NCBI GenBank assembly: GCA_049296775.1
Contig: JBAQTB010000003.1
Coordinates: 204,766 to 268,765 of the forward strand
Length of the DNA: 64,000 nt
Direction of reading: 5' to 3'
From: Patescibacteria group bacterium
GTDB lineage: Bacteria; Patescibacteriota; Patescibacteriia; UBA9934
The notes under the pieces: model-generated
What the model was told of the DNA's origin: nothing
What the model saw: the letters and a program-made list of their open reading frames with translations, nothing else
Database searches by the model: none
Translations under genes and position numbers: made by a program
Shown here: piece after piece, positions 4,591 through 62,676 of the stretch
Layout: each line of letters starts with the position of its first letter
How positions within the stretch are numbered: the first letter of the stretch is position 1

Positions 4591-5020
4591 TCAGACAATG
4601 GGCATCACGATGATTCCCTACGGTGATATGGCCGCCTTCGGCGCGTGGCGGGCCAATGTGTTGAAATGATACCGTCTTGCTCGACTGAGCTCAACGGCGC
4701 TTGGTGTTTAAGGCTTACCCCCTGCACCGTTATAGCGTGCAGGGCTTAGACAGGCGTCATGAGTGACTCCAATAAGTCCGTTTGGCTACCGGTCGGCGCG
4801 TCGTTTTGCGAGCCCGGATGGTCGAAGCCAAGGGTTGATGTTTTGCCGGCGAAATTACCGACGGCGCGATTATTATCCCAACGCGTAATAACTTAGCGTT
4901 CAGCGGAAATTCCGCCGCGGGGGGAGTCGCATCCAAGCCAGGCCTGAACACGACTGCAGTAAGATAGCACAAATACTAGCTTTTGTCAAGCTAGTATGCT
5001 GAGTATTTAGCTAACTGTAG
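4591..5020 (-). ncRNA. Candidate structured non-coding RNA (identity unresolved) between uppS and the terminator
   Basis: ~430 bp without convincing ORF (only a 71-aa low-complexity ORF), several local hairpins (GGCCGCCUUCGGCG..., CCUGCACCGUUAUAGCGUGCAGG), ends at strong terminator on the minus strand; no RNase P / tmRNA / SRP consensus recognised by eye. Confidence 0.2.
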
Positions 5021-7871: not shown

Positions 7872-8792
7872 CTATCTTGTGTAATTAGTAACTTGATAGC
7901 CGGTGATTTCGAATTCGTCTGTGACGAAGCCGAGGGCTTCGGTGCCGTAGGCCCAGGCTTTGAGTTCGACTTTTAAAATGAGAGGATTTTCCGGATCAGC
8001 CAGAATCGTGAAGGTGGCTAATTTGTTTTCCGCTTGAATAGTGGTCACACGGACTTTTTTGCCATTCACTTGCAGCGTGTATTTACCCCAGGCGGCGTCA
8101 GCCTCAATTTCTGTAATATCGACCTCTTCTGCCGATACCTCCACAGGACTACCGGATTGTAATTTCGAGAGTAAATCTTTAAACGCATCGGCCGCCTTGG
8201 CGAGTCCAGCGAGATTGGCATCAAACGAGCTCAGCGCTAAATTAGTATGTCGAGTAGCTGCCAATTCGTCATAGCGCGTTTTAGACAGCCAAAGCACGGA
8301 GTTTTCTTCGCCAACGTTGGCGACCTCTCCCTCTGGCCATTCACTTGGCAAATACAAACGTCCGCCGCTCGCCAATCCGCTACTCGTTACCGAGCCTGTT
8401 AACGCGATAGTTTCATACACCGCCGCTGGTACAACCGACTCTTCCCCAACTCCGCTAGCACGTTCCGCCGCTTCACGAGCCGTCAATGAGGCCGGCGTTT
8501 CTTGTTCAAAAGTTTCTGACCAACTAAACGCCACCCGCTCGTTCGGCACAAACTCAGTAAAGGCGACGACGCGGTCGTGTTGCTTATTAAACTTGCTCAG
8601 CGGACTGATCTCCAATTTTTGCAACGTTAACGTCGACCCTGCAGCAGGTCGCAGATCTGCAACGGCTACTTCAGCCGCGCCAAACGGCATCACCAACCAC
8701 TCGGGTCGCTGACAACCGGCGCCCATCAGCAAGAATAGCGCCATCACTCCCAAGGGTCGTAAAAGTTGCATATTACGGTTTCTTACCCTCAA
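7872..8792 (-). CDS. Putative lipoprotein, function unknown
   Basis: Signal peptide ending LLMGAGC (lipobox-like), no known domain recognised. Confidence 0.5.
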   Translation of the reverse strand: MRVRNRNMQLLRPLGVMALFLLMGAGCQRPEWLVMPFGAAEVAVADLRPAAGSTLTLQKLEISPLSKFNKQHDRVVAFTEFVPNERVAFSWSETFEQETPASLTAREAAERASGVGEESVVPAAVYETIALTGSVTSSGLASGGRLYLPSEWPEGEVANVGEENSVLWLSKTRYDELAATRHTNLALSSFDANLAGLAKAADAFKDLLSKLQSGSPVEVSAEEVDITEIEADAAWGKYTLQVNGKKVRVTTIQAENKLATFTILADPENPLILKVELKAWAYGTEALGFVTDEFEITGYQVTNYTR

Positions 8793-9039
8793 CCAATGCT
8801 TTCAAAACCACCTCATCACACGATCCGCAAATGTAATGTTTAGACTCGGTGTTATAGAAAAATGGCACTCCACCGCACAAACCCTTGTCGATCTCTGACA
8901 AGCGCTTTGCATTCGCCTCATCATTCCAGACTTCGAGCTTTTCAAAAGTTACTCCCAACTTTTTCTCGATCTTAGCCACCACCGGCTTCATGGTTATGCA
9001 ATGCGGACATTTATCTCCAAAAAACTCAAGTAAGGCCAT
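8773..9039 (-). CDS. Small thioredoxin-fold redox protein with CPHC active site
   Basis: 88 aa, FGDKCPHCITMKP near N-terminus typical of Trx/Grx-like CxxC, second CGSC pair. Confidence 0.65.
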   Translation of the reverse strand: MALLEFFGDKCPHCITMKPVVAKIEKKLGVTFEKLEVWNDEANAKRLSEIDKGLCGGVPFFYNTESKHYICGSCDEVVLKALVEGKKP

Positions 9040-9159
9040 ACAGAAAAGACATTATTTTTTGATAGCGTACCATTTTTCACGCTGTAATTCGATTCCCCGC
9101 CGCTTACCAGAATAGATAGCTATTTTTTTGTGAGTTTCAAGAGGAAAAAAAGGTGCCGT

Positions 9160-9178
9160 AACCTTGCGTCGTAAAACG
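9160..9178. repeat. 19-bp direct repeat copy 1 (AACCTTGCGTCGTAAAACG) flanking structured element A
   Basis: Second copy AACCTTGCGTCGCAAAACA at 9492-9510 (17/19 identical), 332 bp apart, bracketing element A. Confidence 0.5.
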
Positions 9179-9196
9179 TTTTATTTTACGTATAAA

Positions 9197-9453
9197 CCCC
9201 TCGGGAGGATACTTTCTTTACCAGAAAAGAAAGTATCCAAAGAAACCGCCCCGGCTTTAAGTCTGTCAGGGTTGAAGTTCGGCGTCACTCCGGGCAAACC
9301 TGGAGTTGGTCGAATTATTCCTAAGATTTCAACTTGTCTAGTGGAACCGACCAACACGGGATTTGCTATTCCTACGTTTCCGCCGAACTTCCTGACGAGG
9401 TCATCCCTAACAGACTCCGCCGGGGATCTGCAAACCACCGCTTACCGCCGTGA
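9197..9453 (-). ncRNA. Conserved structured element A (paralog of element B at 26567-26856); candidate novel ncRNA or cis-regulatory leader
   Basis: Shares with B identical blocks (GGATACTTTCTTT-loop-AAAGAAAGTATCC 13-bp hairpin, CAAAGAAA, CTGTCAG/CTGTCGAG, GGGCAAA, GCTATTCCT, CCGAA-TTCCTGA, CCACCGCTTACCGCCGTGA) and helices with compensatory changes; one G-U vs A-C difference weakly favours minus strand. Confidence 0.45.
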
Positions 9454-9491
9454 GTATCGCTCGGCAGCAAATCAGGAACACTTCTGATCTG

Positions 9492-9510
9492 AACCTTGCG
9501 TCGCAAAACA
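9492..9510. repeat. 19-bp direct repeat copy 2 (AACCTTGCGTCGCAAAACA)
   Basis: See copy 1 at 9160-9178. Confidence 0.5.
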
Positions 9511-9599
9511 TTTCTTCTCACCGTTCCTGCCGACAACCTAATCCCTCCTAACGTCGGGATAACACATAAGACGTCGATACCATTAAAACTACGCCATCA

Positions 9600-9725: not shown

Positions 9726-10610
9726 GTGGCACAAGACATCACGCCCGAACAGAGAGATCTCATCGTCAATCGCATCACAACTTCAGCGCGCGAGGCTATT
9801 GATAGCCTCAAGCTCAACGCCGACCAGGCGCGGCTCGTCATCGACAATCCAGACGGCCTCGCCAGGATTGTCGGCGATGTAATACGTAATCTTATCGCCT
9901 TATTTGTGGGCGTTGAGGAGCGCGTCAACAACGAGGCCTGCCTGATGTTAAGTGCAGACGAGGTGGCCAAACTGTCCGCCTGGTACCCCGACTACATCCC
10001 GGAAGGCATCAAGTCCGCGCGCGAGATCCTCGGCAACGACTTCATCTCGCCGGGCGAGATCGAGGCCAGCCGCCCCGGGCTCGTGTATAGCCTCTTGCAG
10101 TGGCAGGAACTCAGTAACAGCGTACCCTCAAAGGAGGTACTCGAATGGTGCCGCGATAACGGCTTCATGCTGGTAGCTGGCCCACCCCGTCCAATGTCGC
10201 TCCTCGAGATCCACGAACTCGACCGCGGCCACCTGCACTCGAAAGAGGCTAACTGGTACGCGGCTGAGAGCGAGGCCTTCGCCAGCTATGACAAGGCGGC
10301 CTGCCGCTGGCTCATGCTGCGCAAGGAGCCCGTGCCTGACTCCATAGAAAAGACCTGGGATGAGCAGCAACAGCTCCTCTCCAGCCTCGAGGTGACGCCC
10401 AACGTCGCCGAGCAGGTCTGGGGCTTGGCCATCTACAAGGCGGTCCGGGGCGTGGGTTTGTTACGGTTCGTATACGTCCGTACGTCGAGTACGGACTCGG
10501 ACGGTAACCGTGTGAGCGTCGGTTGCTTCGACCGGGACGGCACCATTCTCGTCCCCCACTACAATCATTGTCGGTACGACCGCATCGGAATCTCCTCCTC
10601 TCGGAAGTAG
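9726..10610 (+). CDS. Hypothetical protein (higher-GC, C-ending codon cassette gene), GTG start
   Basis: 294-aa ORF, RBS AGAGAGG upstream of GTG; codon third positions strongly C/G biased unlike neighbouring core genes; no known domain recognised. Confidence 0.6.
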   Translation: MAQDITPEQRDLIVNRITTSAREAIDSLKLNADQARLVIDNPDGLARIVGDVIRNLIALFVGVEERVNNEACLMLSADEVAKLSAWYPDYIPEGIKSAREILGNDFISPGEIEASRPGLVYSLLQWQELSNSVPSKEVLEWCRDNGFMLVAGPPRPMSLLEIHELDRGHLHSKEANWYAAESEAFASYDKAACRWLMLRKEPVPDSIEKTWDEQQQLLSSLEVTPNVAEQVWGLAIYKAVRGVGLLRFVYVRTSSTDSDGNRVSVGCFDRDGTILVPHYNHCRYDRIGISSSRK

Positions 10611-25038: not shown

Positions 25039-26454
25039 TTAACGTGATTCGCGTACCCGTTGACCGTCTGCCGTGTCCTCTACCAGCAGCCCAAGTTCAG
25101 CGAGAGTATCCCGTAAACTATCTGATTTGGCAAAGTCTTTGTCCAGACGCGCCTGTTGACGCTCCGCCAAAAGCGCCTCCGCTTCAGCCGAGATTTTCAC
25201 CGGTCTCGCCACAACATCTTCCAGGGCTAGGCCGAGAATCTCATCAAACTTTAGCAAAGTTGCGGCTTTGACTGCACTACTTAACGATTCATTGCCAACT
25301 AATTTCCAGACTAAAGCTAGACCGGTGGTGGTATCCAGATCCTGACTCAAGTGCTCCAAAAATTCGTCCCAACTAGCTTGATCTAGCTCAGTTGGCTGGT
25401 CCCAGCCCCTAACAGTATCGACAAGCTTATCAAGCGCATTCTGCGCCCCCTGAACCGCCTCCCAAGTGAAATTGAGTTTAGATTTGTAATTAGCGCCTAA
25501 GACAAAGTAACGGAAGGCTAAAGCAGAAATACCTTTCGCGGCCAGATCATCCAAACTGTAAGTATTGTTCAACGACTTACTCATCTTGCCACCGTCAATA
25601 AGTAAAAATTCGTTGTGCAACCAGTAATTAGCTTCAAGCACTCCTCTAGCCGCTTCTGCTTGAGCGATTTCATTTTCATGGTGTACCGCAATATGGTCGA
25701 TACCGCCGGTATGCACATCAAACGGTAAACCTAAATATTTTTCCGCCATGGCTGAACATTCAATATGCCAGCCCGGGAAGCCCTTGCCCCAAGGAGAGTT
25801 CCACTCCATGTGGCGTCGTGCAACGACGCCATCCTGAGCGCCGTCGAAGGGTCTCTCACTTGGCGAAAACTTCCACAAGGCAAAATCGCTCGCCTGACGT
25901 TTATCGCCAATCTCTACTCTGGCTCCAGCTGCCTTCTCCGCCATACTCTGACCGGACAGGCGGCCGTAACCCGGCTGCTTGGACGTATCAAAATAAACTC
26001 CGTCGGCAATTTGATAGGTCAAACCCTGATCCTCAATAGCTTTAATCATCGCGATCTGTTCGGCGATATGATCCGTGGCTTTAGGCATGACGGTAGGAGT
26101 CAAAGCGTTTAAGCGCTTTAAATCCGCCATAAATAACTGCGTGTAAGTCTCAGCCACTTCCCAAGCGGTCTTACCTTCACGCTCCGCACCCTTCTCAAGT
26201 TTATCTTGACCTTCATCAGCGTCGCTCACTAAGTGACCGACATCGGTGATGTTCATCACCTGAGTAACTTGATAACCCGATTGCTCAAACACTCTCCGCA
26301 ACGTGTCTGAAAACACGTAAGCTCTAAGATTGCCAATTGAAGCGCGGTCATACACAGTTGGCCCGCAAGTATACAAACCCACGTGCCCAGGCTTGATGGC
26401 CTTAAATTCCTGCTCCTGCCTGCCTAAAGTATTGAAAAGTTTAATTGATGACAT
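25039..26454 (-). CDS. cysS: Cysteine--tRNA ligase
   Basis: HIGH-type CGPTVYDRASIGNLRAYV, KMSKSLNN motif, Zn-binding Cys residues. Confidence 0.92.
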   Translation of the reverse strand: MSSIKLFNTLGRQEQEFKAIKPGHVGLYTCGPTVYDRASIGNLRAYVFSDTLRRVFEQSGYQVTQVMNITDVGHLVSDADEGQDKLEKGAEREGKTAWEVAETYTQLFMADLKRLNALTPTVMPKATDHIAEQIAMIKAIEDQGLTYQIADGVYFDTSKQPGYGRLSGQSMAEKAAGARVEIGDKRQASDFALWKFSPSERPFDGAQDGVVARRHMEWNSPWGKGFPGWHIECSAMAEKYLGLPFDVHTGGIDHIAVHHENEIAQAEAARGVLEANYWLHNEFLLIDGGKMSKSLNNTYSLDDLAAKGISALAFRYFVLGANYKSKLNFTWEAVQGAQNALDKLVDTVRGWDQPTELDQASWDEFLEHLSQDLDTTTGLALVWKLVGNESLSSAVKAATLLKFDEILGLALEDVVARPVKISAEAEALLAERQQARLDKDFAKSDSLRDTLAELGLLVEDTADGQRVRESR

Positions 26455-26566
26455 AGTTACCCCTAGGGTACTAGCAACTGGCGAAGTTGCAAAGAGCCAA
26501 TTGCATGGCCAGTCAAACCCTCAACTTCCCTTCGACATTAAAGCTAATTATCGGCCTACGGCCGCA

Positions 26567-26856
26567 TCCCCTTCCGGGGGAGATACTTTCTTTGTAGGAC
26601 AAAGAAAGTATCCAAAGAAAACCTTTCAAGCTCCCACCTTTAGGTCTGTCGAGACTGAAATTCGTCGTCGCTACGGGCAAAACAAATCCCAACCGATTCT
26701 TTATCGTTCAACTGTACGGACAGATAGACGACCCGTCCGTACAGTTATAGTATCGGCTGGAGTTGTTTTGCTATTCCTTCGCTCTCGCCGAATTTCCTGA
26801 AAACTGTCAGCCTCAACAGACCGCGGTGGGATGCGCTCCACCGCTTACCGCCGTGA
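26567..26856 (-). ncRNA. Conserved structured element B (paralog of element A); lies directly upstream of cysS in minus-strand sense
   Basis: See element A; additional B-specific perfect hairpin ACTGTACGGAC...GTCCGTACAGT; G-U wobble (minus) vs A-C mismatch (plus) in inner helix. Confidence 0.45.
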
Positions 26857-26865
26857 ATAGAGCCG

Positions 26866-26905
26866 ACAACAAAACAGCCGCGCCTTATAAATTAAGGTGC
26901 GGCTG
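26866..26905 (-). terminator. Hairpin + U-run (minus strand) overlapping the stop codon of the anti-sigma-like gene
   Basis: plus strand aacaaaaCAGCCGCgccttataaattaaggtGCGGCTG; 7-bp stem, 17-nt loop. Confidence 0.45.
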
Positions 26906-37185: not shown

Positions 37186-38295
37186 ATGGCCGAGTCTGTC
37201 AACCGCAAATACAGTGTCATCCCAAGTGAAGAACACCTGGGTGGCAAGATCCGCATCCCCCGCTATACGACGGTCAGTCTGACTGACAAACCAGAGAGCT
37301 GGACCGTGCCTGACCCGGCGCCCTTCATGGCGCAGGTGCAGGCGGCCGTGGCTCAATACTACATGCGATTCGTATCCGCTGCCGGCGAACAGAAACTACC
37401 ATTCGAACTGACGTCCGACGTCATGGGGAGCGACGTCAGCGCCTACCTCCAGAAAAGGGCACCAGCCTATGGCATTCCGGCAGCGGCGCTGACCTACGCC
37501 CAGCATCGCCTGAATCTCGCAGGCCTGACATACGATGAGTCGGTGGCTGGCCTGTGCGACTTGGCCCACACGGCAAGCAGCGTTGCCGTCACCCTGACCA
37601 AAGACAAGTGGTCGGATGCCAGAATGAGCATGGACGCTGGTAATGTGATCATCGAGTCACGGCCCGACGACCCCGAAGACGTGCAAGCGGCGTTAGCCGA
37701 GCTCCAGCAAACCGGCTGCAAGCGCATCCGTGATCTGGACGGCTACACCGGCCGCTGTCCAGACTTCAGCAGTCCGCTCGTGCGCTACAGACTGGGAGTC
37801 TGCAGTGTGATCTGGCTGGAGGATAGAGGGCAATTCATGATCACGCGGCGGGGCCGCGCCGTGAACGGCCTCAACACTGGCCGAGTCTGCGCTGCTTCCG
37901 GCGCCGTGAACTGGCGCCACGTGGAGGCGCAGACTCCGGACAAATACGGACGCGTCCAACTACAGGCCGTGCTACACGCAGCCATGGAGGAAGAGGCACG
38001 AGAAGAAATTGCCGACATTGATTGGGAGATTACTCCCATTGGCGCAGCGCGTGAACTGACGCGCCGCGGCTCACCCGAGTTCTTCTACATCCTGCAGCCG
38101 AAAAGACTCAGGCTCGAAGCATTGCTGGAAGCCATGAGCGCCAATACTCACCCAGGAGCGCAGGAGGTAGATGACATTCTCTATCTCCTTACCCCGCAAT
38201 TAGTGAGGGAGCTCATGAAACCAGAGGCAGCGGGGATCATTCACCCCAAAGGCTTGATGAATCTCGGATTGGCACGCGGCATGATCGTCGGCTAA
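37186..38295 (+). CDS. Hypothetical protein (higher-GC cassette gene)
   Basis: 369 aa, strong RBS AGGAGGT, C-ending codon bias, no domain recognised. Confidence 0.55.
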   Translation: MAESVNRKYSVIPSEEHLGGKIRIPRYTTVSLTDKPESWTVPDPAPFMAQVQAAVAQYYMRFVSAAGEQKLPFELTSDVMGSDVSAYLQKRAPAYGIPAAALTYAQHRLNLAGLTYDESVAGLCDLAHTASSVAVTLTKDKWSDARMSMDAGNVIIESRPDDPEDVQAALAELQQTGCKRIRDLDGYTGRCPDFSSPLVRYRLGVCSVIWLEDRGQFMITRRGRAVNGLNTGRVCAASGAVNWRHVEAQTPDKYGRVQLQAVLHAAMEEEAREEIADIDWEITPIGAARELTRRGSPEFFYILQPKRLRLEALLEAMSANTHPGAQEVDDILYLLTPQLVRELMKPEAAGIIHPKGLMNLGLARGMIVG

Positions 38296-62605: not shown

Positions 62606-62676
62606 GGACTCGCGGTAAAGGTTTGCCTCATCTGGCCTGTCACCCGATGATGCGGGTTCGAATCCCGCCGAGTCCA
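62606..62676 (+). other. tRNA-like element (perfect acceptor stem and T arm, non-canonical anticodon arm, no encoded CCA) enclosed by an outer 9-bp stem (62592-62600 / 62691-62699)
   Basis: GGACTCG...GCGGG-TTCGAAT-CCCGC-CGAGTCC-A; D arm only 3 bp; no 5-bp anticodon stem with U33/R37 loop could be drawn; outer repeat CCGGAAGTC ... GACTTCCGG. Confidence 0.3.

What the first reader, a model, noticed from the sequence alone, without database searches (positions are those of the whole stretch)
9197..9453. Element A: one of two paralogous conserved structured non-coding elements (~260 nt)
The intergenic segment 9197-9453 is homologous to 26567-26856 (element B). Identical blocks in the same order include a perfect 12-13-bp hairpin GGATACTTTCTTT-(6-7 nt loop)-AAAGAAAGTATCC followed by CAAAGAAA; GTCTGTCAGGG/GTCTGTCGAGA; CGGGCAAA; (T)TGCTATTCCT; CGCCGAA(C/T)TTCCTGA; and the 19-nt CCACCGCTTACCGCCGTGA. 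Between these blocks the helices are kept but their sequence is not: the hairpin UGAC-CUC-GUCA in A corresponds to CUGA-CAGUUU-UCAG in B, and the inner helix GUUGGUCG/CGACCAAC in A corresponds to CCAGCCGAU/AUCGGUUGG in B, both closed by the same outer helix GCAAA(AC)/(GU)UUUGC. Structure conserved with sequence covariation is the hallmark of a functional RNA rather than a decayed repeat. Read on the minus strand the B inner helix has a G-U wobble where the plus strand would have an A-C mismatch, which weakly favours minus-strand transcription. In that orientation A sits upstream of the CPHC thioredoxin-fold gene (8773-9039) and B upstream of cysS. Both genes are cysteine/thiol-related, so a shared cis-regulatory RNA (riboswitch or leader class) is one hypothesis; an independent sRNA pair is another. 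I could not match the element to T-box, RNase P, tmRNA, SRP, 6S or known riboswitch consensus by eye.
Basis: seen in the sequence. Interest (0 to 1): 0.8.

Follow-up and report, generated by a model that had tools for sequence, protein, structure and literature searches.

The report
Structured mobile non-coding repeat in Patescibacteria
The two look-alike intergenic segments are real copies of a roughly 270-base non-coding element that keeps its folded shape; it was inserted at different places in a few related candidate-phyla-radiation bacteria, so it behaves like a small mobile repeat and not like a switch for cysteine or thiol genes.

Summary
A (window 9190-9452) and B (26565-26855) are homologous, and Rfam has no match. 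I found three more full copies (L005, L025, L026) and two internally deleted copies (L001, L004) in related Patescibacteria. Five full copies share one fold: 73 pairs, 94% paired, 17 pairs with compensatory changes.

The thiol-riboswitch reading fails. Other copies lie next to unrelated genes, sometimes antisense to them or between convergent genes. The orthologous intergenic regions of close relatives lack the element: 66-204 bp upstream of cysS in those with the same gene order, against 437 bp here. A is flanked by a 22-bp duplication of a sequence that is single in a relative.

The 3' module is a pyrimidine tract, an A/U-rich 13-bp hairpin and a GC hairpin. It recurs as the inverted ends of 340-690-bp foldback repeats in Burkholderiales and Pasteurella, and in viral contigs. 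In all seven asymmetric variants the upstream tract mirrors the hairpin arm, which fits an intramolecular triple helix.

Best reading: an undescribed, structured, non-autonomous mobile element, of which A and B are old copies. The acting strand, any transcription and the mobilising enzyme remain unknown.

The parts
9190..9452 (-). Element A, the conserved core. In RNA sense (minus strand): 5' invariant 18-mer, long irregular rod, pyrimidine tract, A/U-rich hairpin, GC hairpin.
   Evidence: Alignments. nhmmer E = 2.5e-68. Fold.
9435..9452 (-). A: 5' module CACGGCGGTAAGCGGTGG. It is invariant in all 7 copies and marks a sharp 5' boundary of conservation.
9249..9425 (-). A: rod. Helices are P1 9419-9425/9249-9255, P2 9405-9415/9261-9271, P4 9381-9391/9274-9284, P5 9360-9366/9294-9300 and P6 9348-9355/9305-9312. 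A conserved asymmetric bulge UAGGAAUA lies at 9367-9374 and a conserved UUUGCCCG at 9291-9298.
9197..9245 (-). A: 3' module. Pyrimidine tract UUUCUUUGG (9237-9245), 13-bp hairpin GGAUACUUUCUUU/AAAGAAAGUAUCC (9207-9238), small GC hairpin CCUCCCGAGGGG (9197-9208).
   Evidence: Homologous modules elsewhere.
9453..9491 (-). A: 5' extension lying between the direct repeat and the 18-mer. Its last ~25 nt are shared with B only.
9492..9513 (.). Direct repeat copy 2 (AACCTTGCGTCGCAAAACATTT) flanking A.
   Evidence: The sequence is single-copy at the same site in relative L022.
9160..9181 (.). Direct repeat copy 1 (AACCTTGCGTCGTAAAACGTTT) flanking A. This copy matches the single ancestral copy in L022.
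9041..9108 (-). A-prime: a possible degenerate fragment of a short variant, directly upstream of the trx-like start codon. It reads GGTAAGCGGCGGGGAATCG...ATAATGTCTTTTCTG.
   Evidence: Repeats D2, D3 and D5. Third GGTAAGCGG. About 75 extra nt relative to L022. Weak evidence.
26565..26855 (-). Element B, the conserved core, with the same architecture as A and a longer distal hairpin (26710-26746).
   Evidence: nhmmer E = 8e-73.
26838..26855 (-). B: 5' invariant 18-mer.
26633..26830 (-). B: rod. Helices are P1 26825-26830/26633-26638, P2 26811-26821/26644-26654, P4 26786-26796/26657-26667, P5 26763-26771/26677-26686 and P6 26752-26760/26689-26697. The bulge AAGGAAUA lies at 26772-26779.
26552..26621 (-). 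B: 3' module. Pyrimidine tract (26612-26621), 14-bp hairpin (26582-26612), hairpin CCCC-GGAA-GGGG with a GNRA-type loop (26568-26579), third hairpin CGGCC-GUA-GGCCG (26552-26564).
   Evidence: blastn hit to Ralstonia.
26866..26903 (-). Intrinsic-terminator-like hairpin and U tract of the upstream DUF5667 gene. B begins right after it. This is context, not part of the element.
   Evidence: (I1).
8773..9039 (-). Thioredoxin-fold gene downstream of A (context only).
   Evidence: Pfam Thioredoxin at 23.1 bits, just under the 23.5 cut-off. Orthologue in L022.
25039..26454 (-). cysS downstream of B (context only).
   Evidence: Pfam. P0001 is 100% identical and named 'MAG: cysteine--tRNA ligase [Patescibacteria group bacterium]'.

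Best explanation
A and B are two old, diverged copies of a previously undescribed family of non-autonomous, insertion-polymorphic non-coding elements. Full length is about 270-370 bp. The family occurs in a narrow group of Patescibacteria related to Uhrbacteria.

Each copy has four parts:
- an invariant 18-nt 5' end;
- a long irregular hairpin ('rod') with conserved asymmetric loops;
- a 3' terminal module made of a pyrimidine tract, an A/U-rich perfect hairpin and one to three small GC hairpins;
- in longer copies, about 100 further conserved bases.

Shown:
- the family and its conserved fold;
- insertion of copies into otherwise compact intergenic regions;
- internally deleted copies that keep both ends;
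- the 3' module shared with the inverted ends of foldback repeats in Proteobacteria and with viral contigs.

Inferred:
- The element is copied to new intergenic sites by an enzyme supplied in trans. None is encoded next to any copy.
- It probably moves through a single-stranded DNA or RNA intermediate of the minus-strand sense. In that intermediate the rod and the terminal hairpins fold, and the pyrimidine tract may lie in the major groove of the A/U hairpin as a short triple helix.
- Selection for this folded form in the propagating lineages would explain why structure is kept while sequence drifts.
- A and B lack the outer part of the 3' module, so they are probably immobile relics.
- Any effect on trx or cysS (a structured 5' region, a transcription barrier or an RNA-stability element) is incidental to where they landed.
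For: Family and fold:
- Real homologues were found through the 19-mer (L001, L004, L005 in MAG JAUPWK01) and through spurious ORFs translated from the element (L025, L026).
- Five full copies share 73 pairs. 93.9% of cells are paired, against 35-49% when partners are slid. 17 pairs carry changes on both sides. 0 of 500 shuffles reach the observed values for cells paired, both-sided changes or covariation score.

Insertion polymorphism:
- Relatives with cysS 72-77% identical and the same gene order have 66-204 bp between the DUF5667 gene and cysS (66, 71, 88 and 204 bp in L027, L019, L020 and L018). The window has 437 bp. In L022 the gene upstream of cysS is different and the gap is 125 bp.
- L022 has 89 bp between the FecR-like gene and trx, with one copy of AACGTTTTACGACGCAA. 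That sequence is duplicated on both sides of A.
- L022 has 21 bp where L005 has 402 bp containing the element.
- nhmmer finds no copy in loci L018-L024 and L027-L030, roughly 160 kb of relatives' sequence.

Copy behaviour:
- There are 2 to 3 or more copies per genome. B is closer to copies in other genomes (77% to L025) than to A (66.5%).
- L001 and L004 are different internal deletions that keep the 18-mer and the 3' hairpins.
- L026 carries two copies joined tail to tail at the hairpin.

Context:
- Neighbouring genes are unrelated and orientation varies.
- No transposase, integrase, reverse transcriptase, Cas, IscB or TnpB domain was found in the 61 of 64 window ORFs scanned.

The 3' module elsewhere:
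- blastn of B hits Ralstonia megaplasmids at the hairpin module.
- The same module forms both inverted ends of 340-690-bp near-palindromic intergenic repeats in Ralstonia, Caballeronia, Paraburkholderia, Burkholderia and Pasteurella. One 2-Mb replicon holds at least 40 places.
- It also occurs in IMG/VR contigs.
Against: - No terminal inverted repeats exist in the Patescibacteria copies. Complementarity between the 18-mer and the 3' tail is no better than in shuffles.
- Only A has a flanking duplication, and 22 bp is unusually long for a transposon.
- No autonomous partner or mobilising enzyme was found.
- Copies are 64-86% identical, with no recent burst. Their helices are still about 94% intact, which also fits continuing selection for a cellular function.
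- The rod has conserved asymmetric loops, for example the invariant AGGAAUAGCAAA. Such loops are more typical of a functional RNA or a specific protein-binding site than of a foldback repeat.
- Only seven copies from four sources are known, so the statistics rest on few sequences.
Confidence: 0.55

Rival explanations
1. A family of trans-acting or scaffold structured RNAs (an sRNA or the RNA part of a ribonucleoprotein), transcribed from the minus strand. It would be multi-copy because the gene duplicates or is exchanged. The conserved 18-mer and the asymmetric loops would be binding sites for a protein or a target.
For: - Strong structural conservation with 17 compensatory pairs.
- Invariant unpaired or asymmetric motifs: the 18-mer, AGGAAUAGCAAA and UUUGCCCG.
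- GNRA-type (GGAA, GGCA) and GNA loops appear only in the minus sense, and several hairpins need G-U pairs in that sense.
- The sense fold is more stable in 4 of 5 copies.
- Helices remain intact at 64-77% sequence identity.
Against: - No conserved promoter lies upstream of the 18-mer, and the upstream sequence is unrelated among copies.
- There is no consistent terminator.
- Close relatives lack the element at the same loci.
- Internally deleted copies lose the whole rod (L001, L004).
- Strand asymmetry is moderate and reversed in L026.
- The 3' module is shared with foldback repeats that are symmetric on both strands.
Confidence: 0.22
2. An orphan guide-RNA-like scaffold of a transposon-encoded RNA-guided system, comparable to IscB/IsrB omega RNA or an IS110 bridge RNA. 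The scaffold would start at the sharp CACGG boundary, and the variable flanking DNA upstream would serve as the guide. It would be used in trans by a nuclease or recombinase encoded elsewhere in the genome.
For: - The 5' boundary of conservation is sharp, and non-conserved sequence lies immediately upstream in all 7 copies.
- The scaffold is about 250 nt and highly structured, with covariation.
- The element is multi-copy, insertion-polymorphic and mostly lacks target duplication. This is what IS200/IS605-type elements show (my own knowledge of that family).
Against: - Rfam HEARO, IS605-orfB and related models do not match, even at E <= 10.
- No IscB, TnpB or IS110 domain was found in the window ORFs scanned or next to any copy.
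- There is no conserved target tetranucleotide next to the boundary.
Confidence: 0.07
3. A DNA-level structural signal: a single-strand initiation site, an origin-associated site or an H-DNA-forming site. It would act in replication or recombination of mobile DNA and would have been left in the chromosome by integration events.
For: - In three viral contigs the hairpin module lies directly next to iteron-like tandem repeats (L069, L074, L121). In L074 it lies near RNase H and DNA ligase genes.
- The mirror-repeat pyrimidine tracts are the classic H-DNA motif (my own knowledge of H-DNA).
- L026 shows a palindromic junction at the hairpin.
Against: - The Patescibacteria copies sit in ordinary chromosomal intergenic regions, with no replication genes or iterons nearby.
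- The conserved rod and the 18-mer are not explained.
- Most viral hits to the pattern are low-complexity pyrimidine tracts without the hairpin.
Confidence: 0.08
4. One reading: a shared cis-regulatory leader or riboswitch that senses cysteine or thiol status and controls trx and cysS.
For: In the window, both copies lie upstream of thiol-related genes and in the same orientation.
Against: - Orthologous trx and cysS genes in relatives lack the element.
- Other copies precede or oppose unrelated genes.
- 110-160 nt lie between the element and the start codons, with no expression platform. The probable trx promoter lies downstream of A.
- There is no T-box or riboswitch match in Rfam.
Confidence: 0.03

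Closest known systems
Structured bacterial MITE-like intergenic repeats (ERIC/IRU, Correia/NEMIS, RUP, REPIN) - named from my own knowledge, not tested here
   Same: Small, with no ORF and several copies per genome. Inserted in intergenic regions with presence/absence differences between relatives. They fold into long hairpins when single-stranded or transcribed, and their helices are kept by compensatory change.
   Different: The Patescibacteria copies have no terminal inverted repeats and no regular target duplication. The two ends differ: an 18-mer at one end and a hairpin module at the other. The rod has conserved asymmetric loops. Copies are old (64-86% identity) and few.
Foldback repeats of Burkholderiales and Pasteurella found here (L031-L037), partly covered by Rfam RF02421 Bp1_684, a computationally predicted Burkholderia sRNA
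   Same: The module is the same over about 50-60 nt: TTTCTTTG, then 2-3 nt plus TAC, then the CTTTCTTTG / CAAAGAAAG hairpin, then CCCCGGNAGGGG. A GACCG...GAAAAC...GGATCC tail follows in the longer copies.
   Different: There the module is present at both ends in inverted orientation, and the whole 340-690-bp element is a near-perfect palindrome. The interior is unrelated to the Patescibacteria rod, and the 18-mer is absent. A and B do not match RF02421 at E <= 10, and the Caballeronia ends score 37 and 34 bits, below the gathering score of 44.
IS200/IS605-derived non-autonomous elements (PATEs) and transposon-encoded omega RNAs (HEARO/IscB, TnpB)
   Same: A structured, non-coding element of about 250 nt with one sharply defined end and terminal hairpins. 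It is usually without target duplication and shows a strand preference.
   Different: No Rfam match, no conserved target tetranucleotide, and no associated TnpA, TnpB or IscB gene found.
Pyrimidine-motif triple helices: the ENE / MALAT1-type RNA triple helix and H-DNA mirror repeats (my own knowledge)
   Same: The strand order is Hoogsteen pyrimidine strand, linker, Watson-Crick pyrimidine strand, loop, purine strand. The expected triples are U.A-U with one C+.G-C. In all 7 asymmetric variants the upstream tract matches the purine arm in parallel register.
   Different: Only 7-8 triples are possible. The purine strand is internal, not a 3' tail. No structure probing was done, and alternative Watson-Crick pairing with a 1-nt slip is not excluded. 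I know of no bacterial precedent.

Membership tests
Riboswitch or cis-regulatory leader for cysteine/thiol genes | Conserved position upstream of orthologous or functionally related genes across genomes | tested here: not met
   Relatives' cysS and trx upstream regions lack the element. Other copies lie next to a Na/H exchanger, pilD/ligA, an O-antigen-ligase-like gene and unknown genes.
Riboswitch or cis-regulatory leader for cysteine/thiol genes | Expression platform (terminator/antiterminator or ribosome-binding-site sequestration) next to the regulated start codon | tested here: not met
   110-160 nt separate the element from the start codons. The only terminator-like sites reported in the two regions do not differ in number from shuffles.
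T-box leader | Match to the Rfam T-box model, with Stem I at the 5' end and the T-box sequence at the 3' end | tested here: not met
   No T-box hit at the gathering score or at E <= 10. The GGUGG-containing motif lies at the 5' end.
Classic MITE | Terminal inverted repeats | tested here: not met
   Pairing of the 18-mer with the 3' tail is no better than in shuffles. The 3' module does form terminal inverted repeats in the proteobacterial relatives.
Classic MITE | Target-site duplication of fixed length | tested here: inconclusive
   Only A is flanked by a repeat (22 bp, 2 mismatches). The other six copies show none of 12 bp or more. Shorter duplications could not be judged.
Classic MITE | Small, non-coding, multi-copy, with presence/absence at orthologous sites | tested here: met
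Classic MITE | Autonomous element with the same ends that encodes a transposase | not testable with these tools
   None was seen in the window or in the fetched loci.
IS200/IS605-type non-autonomous element or omega RNA | Conserved target tetra- or pentanucleotide next to the left end | tested here: not met
   The bases before CACGG differ: ATACT, CTATT, TTCTT, CTTTT, CCTCT, AGCTA, GGCAG.
IS200/IS605-type non-autonomous element or omega RNA | Match to HEARO or IS605-orfB RNA models, or an adjacent TnpA/TnpB/IscB gene | tested here: not met
   No Rfam match. No such Pfam domain near any copy.
Rfam RF02421 Bp1_684 | Score at or above the gathering score (44 bits) | tested here: not met
   A and B give no hit at E <= 10. 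The Caballeronia ends score 37.2 and 33.6 bits.
6S RNA or other housekeeping rod-like RNAs (SRP RNA, RNase P RNA, tmRNA) | Rfam model match and a conserved single locus | tested here: not met
   No hits. The element is absent from close relatives.
Pyrimidine-motif triple helix (ENE-like or H-DNA-like) | The third strand matches the purine strand in parallel register, that is, it mirrors the Watson-Crick pyrimidine strand | tested here: met
   All 7 asymmetric variants are mirrored and none is a direct repeat: L032+, L032-, L034, L035, L099, L124/L136, L135. A and B carry the symmetric UUUCUUU core and are uninformative.
Pyrimidine-motif triple helix (ENE-like or H-DNA-like) | Physical formation of base triples | not testable with these tools
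   This needs pH-dependent melting, chemical probing or a solved structure.

The most novel reading that the evidence does not exclude
The conserved 3' module is a pyrimidine tract followed by a hairpin whose purine arm it matches in parallel. The most novel reading is that it forms an intramolecular U.A-U / C+.G-C triple-helix cap. This cap would be spread across phyla (Patescibacteria, Beta- and Gammaproteobacteria, viral contigs), would sit at the ends of a hitherto unnamed class of mobile non-coding elements, and would act on their RNA or single-stranded DNA form, in protection, priming or enzyme recognition. In this reading the Patescibacteria elements carry a structured RNA cargo of their own: the 18-mer plus the rod.
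Probability: 0.2. Interest if true: 0.8.

Novelty: new variant of a known kind. Interest (0 to 1): 0.5.

Why it matters
- Patescibacteria have tiny, streamlined genomes, so a 270-370-bp non-coding element that keeps an elaborate fold and is copied into compact intergenic regions is unexpected baggage. It is either a selfish element with an unknown way of moving or an RNA with a function worth its cost.
- The terminal module links it to abundant, unnamed foldback repeats in Burkholderiales and Pasteurella. These organisms can be cultured, so the mechanism can be tested there.
- The mirror-repeat covariation points to a short triple helix, a motif not known to me from bacterial mobile elements.
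- For annotation, the result warns against reading gene neighbourhood in a single genome as evidence for a riboswitch.

Tried and rejected
1. Rfam at the gathering score on the whole window, and at E <= 10 on both regions and on related loci. Only tRNAs and chance hits appeared.
2. Exact 19-mer scans.
   - The genome collection gave the JAUPWK01 copies plus chance coding hits in Zixibacteria.
   - All 11 metagenome hits were chance matches in unrelated, mostly coding sequence.
   - The viral collection gave nothing.
   - L025 starts ACACGG, which shows the 19-mer was too strict.
3. A's plus-strand ORF as a protein query found nothing. The minus-strand ORF and a three-sequence profile found P0123 and P0124 only.
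4. Synteny walking from cysS homologues found no further copies.
5. The terminal-inverted-repeat or panhandle idea: the 18-mer against the CUUCGCCGUC motif in L004, L005 and L025 is not better than shuffles.
6. Flanking duplications in the other copies: none of 12 bp or more.
7. Promoter and terminator scans were uninformative.
8. The lineage-specific ORFs 9726-10610 and 37186-38295 as possible element-encoded proteins: no Pfam or NCBIfam hit, and no similarity to each other.
9. The extra motif downstream of the element in L004, L005 and L025 does not fold better than shuffles in two of the three and is absent from the window.
10. blastn against E. coli genomes and GenBank phages found nothing.
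11. Literature searches for a named family or for the motif sequence found nothing relevant.
12. Most of the 120 viral-contig pattern hits are low-complexity pyrimidine tracts without the hairpin.
13. Genes next to the true viral modules share no function.
Full report
**1. The observation**

They align over their whole length, at 77% mean column identity with flanks. The 19-mer CCACCGCTTACCGCCGTGA occurs only in these two places, where 0.02 occurrences are expected. Neither region matches any Rfam family, at the gathering score or at E <= 10.

Both strands fold much better than shuffled sequence:

| Copy | Minus strand (kcal/mol) | z | Plus strand (kcal/mol) |
|---|---|---|---|
| A | -122.1 | -6.5 | -108.8 |
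| B | -152.3 | -9.5 | -121.2 |

**2. Organism and context**

The cysS product is identical to a protein of a 'Patescibacteria group bacterium' MAG on a 383-kb contig. The nearest named relatives are Uhrbacteria, at about 65% identity.

The window encodes ordinary housekeeping genes: Era, UppS, Dus, RimK, DnaK/DnaJ/GrpE/HrcA, DnaX, RNR and MurE-like proteins. Pfam found no transposase, integrase, reverse transcriptase, Cas, IscB or TnpB domain in the 61 of 64 ORFs scanned.

A lies in a divergent region between the trx-like gene (minus strand) and a lineage-specific ORF at 9726-10610 (plus strand). B lies between the terminator of an ECF-sigma/DUF5667 operon and cysS.

**3. More copies**

The exact 19-mer found three loci in MAG JAUPWK01, also labelled Patescibacteria group:
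- L005 is a full copy.
- L001 and L004 are short variants.

The Zixibacteria hits and all the metagenome hits are chance matches.

Gene callers sometimes translate such elements, so I searched with A's minus-strand ORF. That search returned P0123, and a three-sequence profile added P0124. These two proteins led to full copies L025 and L026 in two JGI metagenomes. L025 begins ACACGG, which explains why the 19-mer scan missed it.

JAUPWK01 and the window genome are relatives: a syntenic 334-aa protein is 78% identical.

**4. Structure**

In minus-strand sense each full copy has the following parts, in order:
- the invariant CACGGCGGUAAGCGGUGG;
- a basal helix P1;
- a long rod (P2, P4, P5, P6 and a variable distal hairpin), with the conserved asymmetric elements AGGAAUAGCAAA and UUUGCCCG;
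- the tract GGUUU(U)CUUUGG;
- a perfect 13-14-bp A/U-rich hairpin;
- a 4-bp GC hairpin with a GGAA or GGCA loop;
- in B, L001, L004, L005 and L025, a third small hairpin with a GNA loop.

L004, L005 and L025 continue for about 100 nt, including GGAUCCUUCGYCGUC.

RNAalifold on the five full copies predicts 73 pairs. 93.9% of cells are paired, against 35-49% with slid partners. 17 pairs have changes on both sides. No shuffle of 500 reaches the observed values for cells paired, both-sided changes or covariation score.

Strand preference is moderate:
- Sense minus antisense minimum free energy is -10.0, -26.5, -9.6, -3.1 and +5.4 kcal/mol.
- G-U pairs number 9 on the sense strand against 4 on the antisense strand.
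- The tetraloop types and several small hairpins favour the minus sense.

**5. Not a thiol regulator**

Gene order around cysS is conserved in the relatives, but the gap upstream of cysS is much shorter there:

| Locus | Gap before cysS |
|---|---|
| Window | 437 bp |
| L018 | 204 bp |
| L020 | 88 bp |
| L019 | 71 bp |
| L027 | 66 bp |
| L022 (different upstream gene) | 125 bp |

In L028 and L029, unrelated genes sit at that spot. No relative has the element.

The trx site and the L005 site tell the same story:
- L022 has only 89 bp between the FecR-like gene and trx.
- In L005 the element sits between a 334-aa gene and a Na/H exchanger gene. L022 has 21 bp there, and the window has a different insertion, ORF 37186-38295.

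Three other copies have different neighbours:
- L001 lies antisense between pilD-like and ligA genes.
- L004 lies between convergent genes.
- L025 follows an unknown gene.

**6. Signs of mobility**

- A is flanked by AACCTTGCGTCGYAAAACRTTT at 9160-9181 and 9492-9513. L022 has one copy of this sequence at the same place. So A was inserted with a 22-bp duplication. No other copy shows a duplication of 12 bp or more.
- L001 lacks everything between P1 and the hairpin. L004 lacks the rod and the hairpin but keeps the pyrimidine tract and the GC hairpins. These are two different internal deletions that keep both ends.
- L026 has a second, diverged copy in inverted orientation that shares the hairpin.
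- B is closer to L025 (77%) and L005 (73%) than to A (66.5%).
- A possible degenerate fragment (9041-9108) lies between A and the trx start.
- Upstream of the 18-mer there is no conserved sequence and no consistent promoter.

**7. The 3' module elsewhere**

blastn of B against PLSDB plasmids hit 96 Ralstonia megaplasmids over the tract, the hairpin and the GC hairpin, at 81% identity over 56-59 nt (E = 6e-4).

In Ralstonia (L031), Caballeronia (L033), Paraburkholderia (L034, L036), Burkholderia (L035, L037) and Pasteurella (L032), the module forms both inverted ends of 340-690-bp near-palindromic intergenic elements. Paraburkholderia caribensis has at least 40 places in one 2-Mb replicon.

The outer part overlaps Rfam RF02421 (Bp1_684, a predicted Burkholderia sRNA) but scores below its gathering score.

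Most are low-complexity pyrimidine tracts. About a dozen carry the true module, three of them next to iteron-like repeats. Neighbouring genes there share no function. There are no matches in E. coli genomes or GenBank phages.

**8. A possible triple helix**

The module reads Py tract - linker - Py arm - loop - Pu arm. Where the tract is asymmetric (T3CT4 or T4CT3), the upstream tract is always the mirror image of the Watson-Crick arm. It therefore matches the purine arm exactly in parallel register. This holds in seven separate loci with both polarities, and none is a direct repeat.

That is what a pyrimidine-motif triplex requires (U.A-U with one C+.G-C). It is not what repeated binding sites for a sequence-specific protein would give.

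Two limits apply. The evidence is sequence only, and Watson-Crick pairing with a 1-nt slip is not excluded. A and B have the symmetric UUUCUUU core and are uninformative on this point.

**9. Verdict**

The elements are real, structured, non-coding and not in Rfam. They behave as an insertion-polymorphic repeat family, not as a regulator of thiol genes.

The most likely reading (0.55) is a non-autonomous mobile element that propagates through a folded single-stranded form. On that reading A and B are old copies that lack the outer 3' end. A cellular RNA function (0.22) remains a serious rival, because the rod keeps conserved asymmetric loops at 64-77% identity. An orphan guide-RNA scaffold (0.07), a DNA-level replication or H-DNA signal (0.08) and the thiol riboswitch (0.03) are less likely.

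The transcription status, the acting strand and the mobilising enzyme were not determined.

Noticed in passing
window 9726-10610 (+) and 37186-38295 (+): Two plus-strand ORFs (294 and 369 aa) have no Pfam or NCBIfam match and no similarity to each other. Both sit in intergenic sites that are only 89 bp and 21 bp long in relative L022. The second occupies exactly the site where L005 carries the element, so these intergenic sites look like insertion hot spots.
   Followed up: partly
window 9041-9108 (-): A possible degenerate fragment of a short element variant lies directly upstream of the trx-like start codon. It appears joined to ancestral sequence at a shared GGTAA. It includes the third GGTAAGCGG in the window and about 75 extra nt relative to L022.
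   Followed up: partly
L026 1232-1357 (-): A second, strongly diverged copy lies in inverted orientation, joined tail to tail to the first copy through a single shared A/U hairpin. It is cut off by the contig end. Its helices have different sequences and would be valuable for covariation analysis if the rest were available.
   Followed up: partly
L028 1797-3834 and L029 3394-5482: In two relatives, unrelated genes without Pfam hits are inserted between the DUF5667 gene and cysS. This is the same spot where the window carries element B.
   Followed up: no
L027 4956-5419: This 463-bp intergenic region holds a cluster of at least five short hairpins of one family (for example AACGCGACACGTTCGCGTT and TTAACGCAACGCTTGTGCGTTAA). 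It is a different repeat family in a related genome.
   Followed up: no
Viral loci such as L038, L049, L051, L079, L116: Many IMG/VR contigs carry long, perfect pyrimidine mirror repeats centred on TTTG-NN-TAC-TTT, for example TTCTTTTCTTTTCTTTG CTTA CTTTCTTTTCTTTTCTT. They often lie just upstream of a gene start. This is the classic H-DNA-forming arrangement, with a conserved centre shared with the module studied here.
   Followed up: no
L069 60-200, L074 about 4700-4860, L121 3372-3500: The true hairpin module lies directly next to iteron-like tandem repeats of about 22 nt in three viral contigs. In L074 it lies near RNase H and ATP-dependent DNA ligase genes. This suggests a link to replication origins in some replicons.
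   Followed up: partly
L034 20090-20150 and the mirrored left end: The Paraburkholderia caribensis foldback element is bordered on both sides by a hexanucleotide microsatellite, (GCGAAA)n/(GCAAAA)n.
   Followed up: no
window 62606-62676 (+): This tRNA call only just reaches the Rfam gathering score (29.7 against 29 bits) and has an irregular D-arm region. It may be an unusual or degenerate tRNA.
   Followed up: no
L025 10237-10907: A long non-coding stretch lies downstream of the element and contains a 49-aa fragment matching the 23S rRNA intervening-sequence protein family (PF05635). It may be further mobile or decayed material.
   Followed up: no
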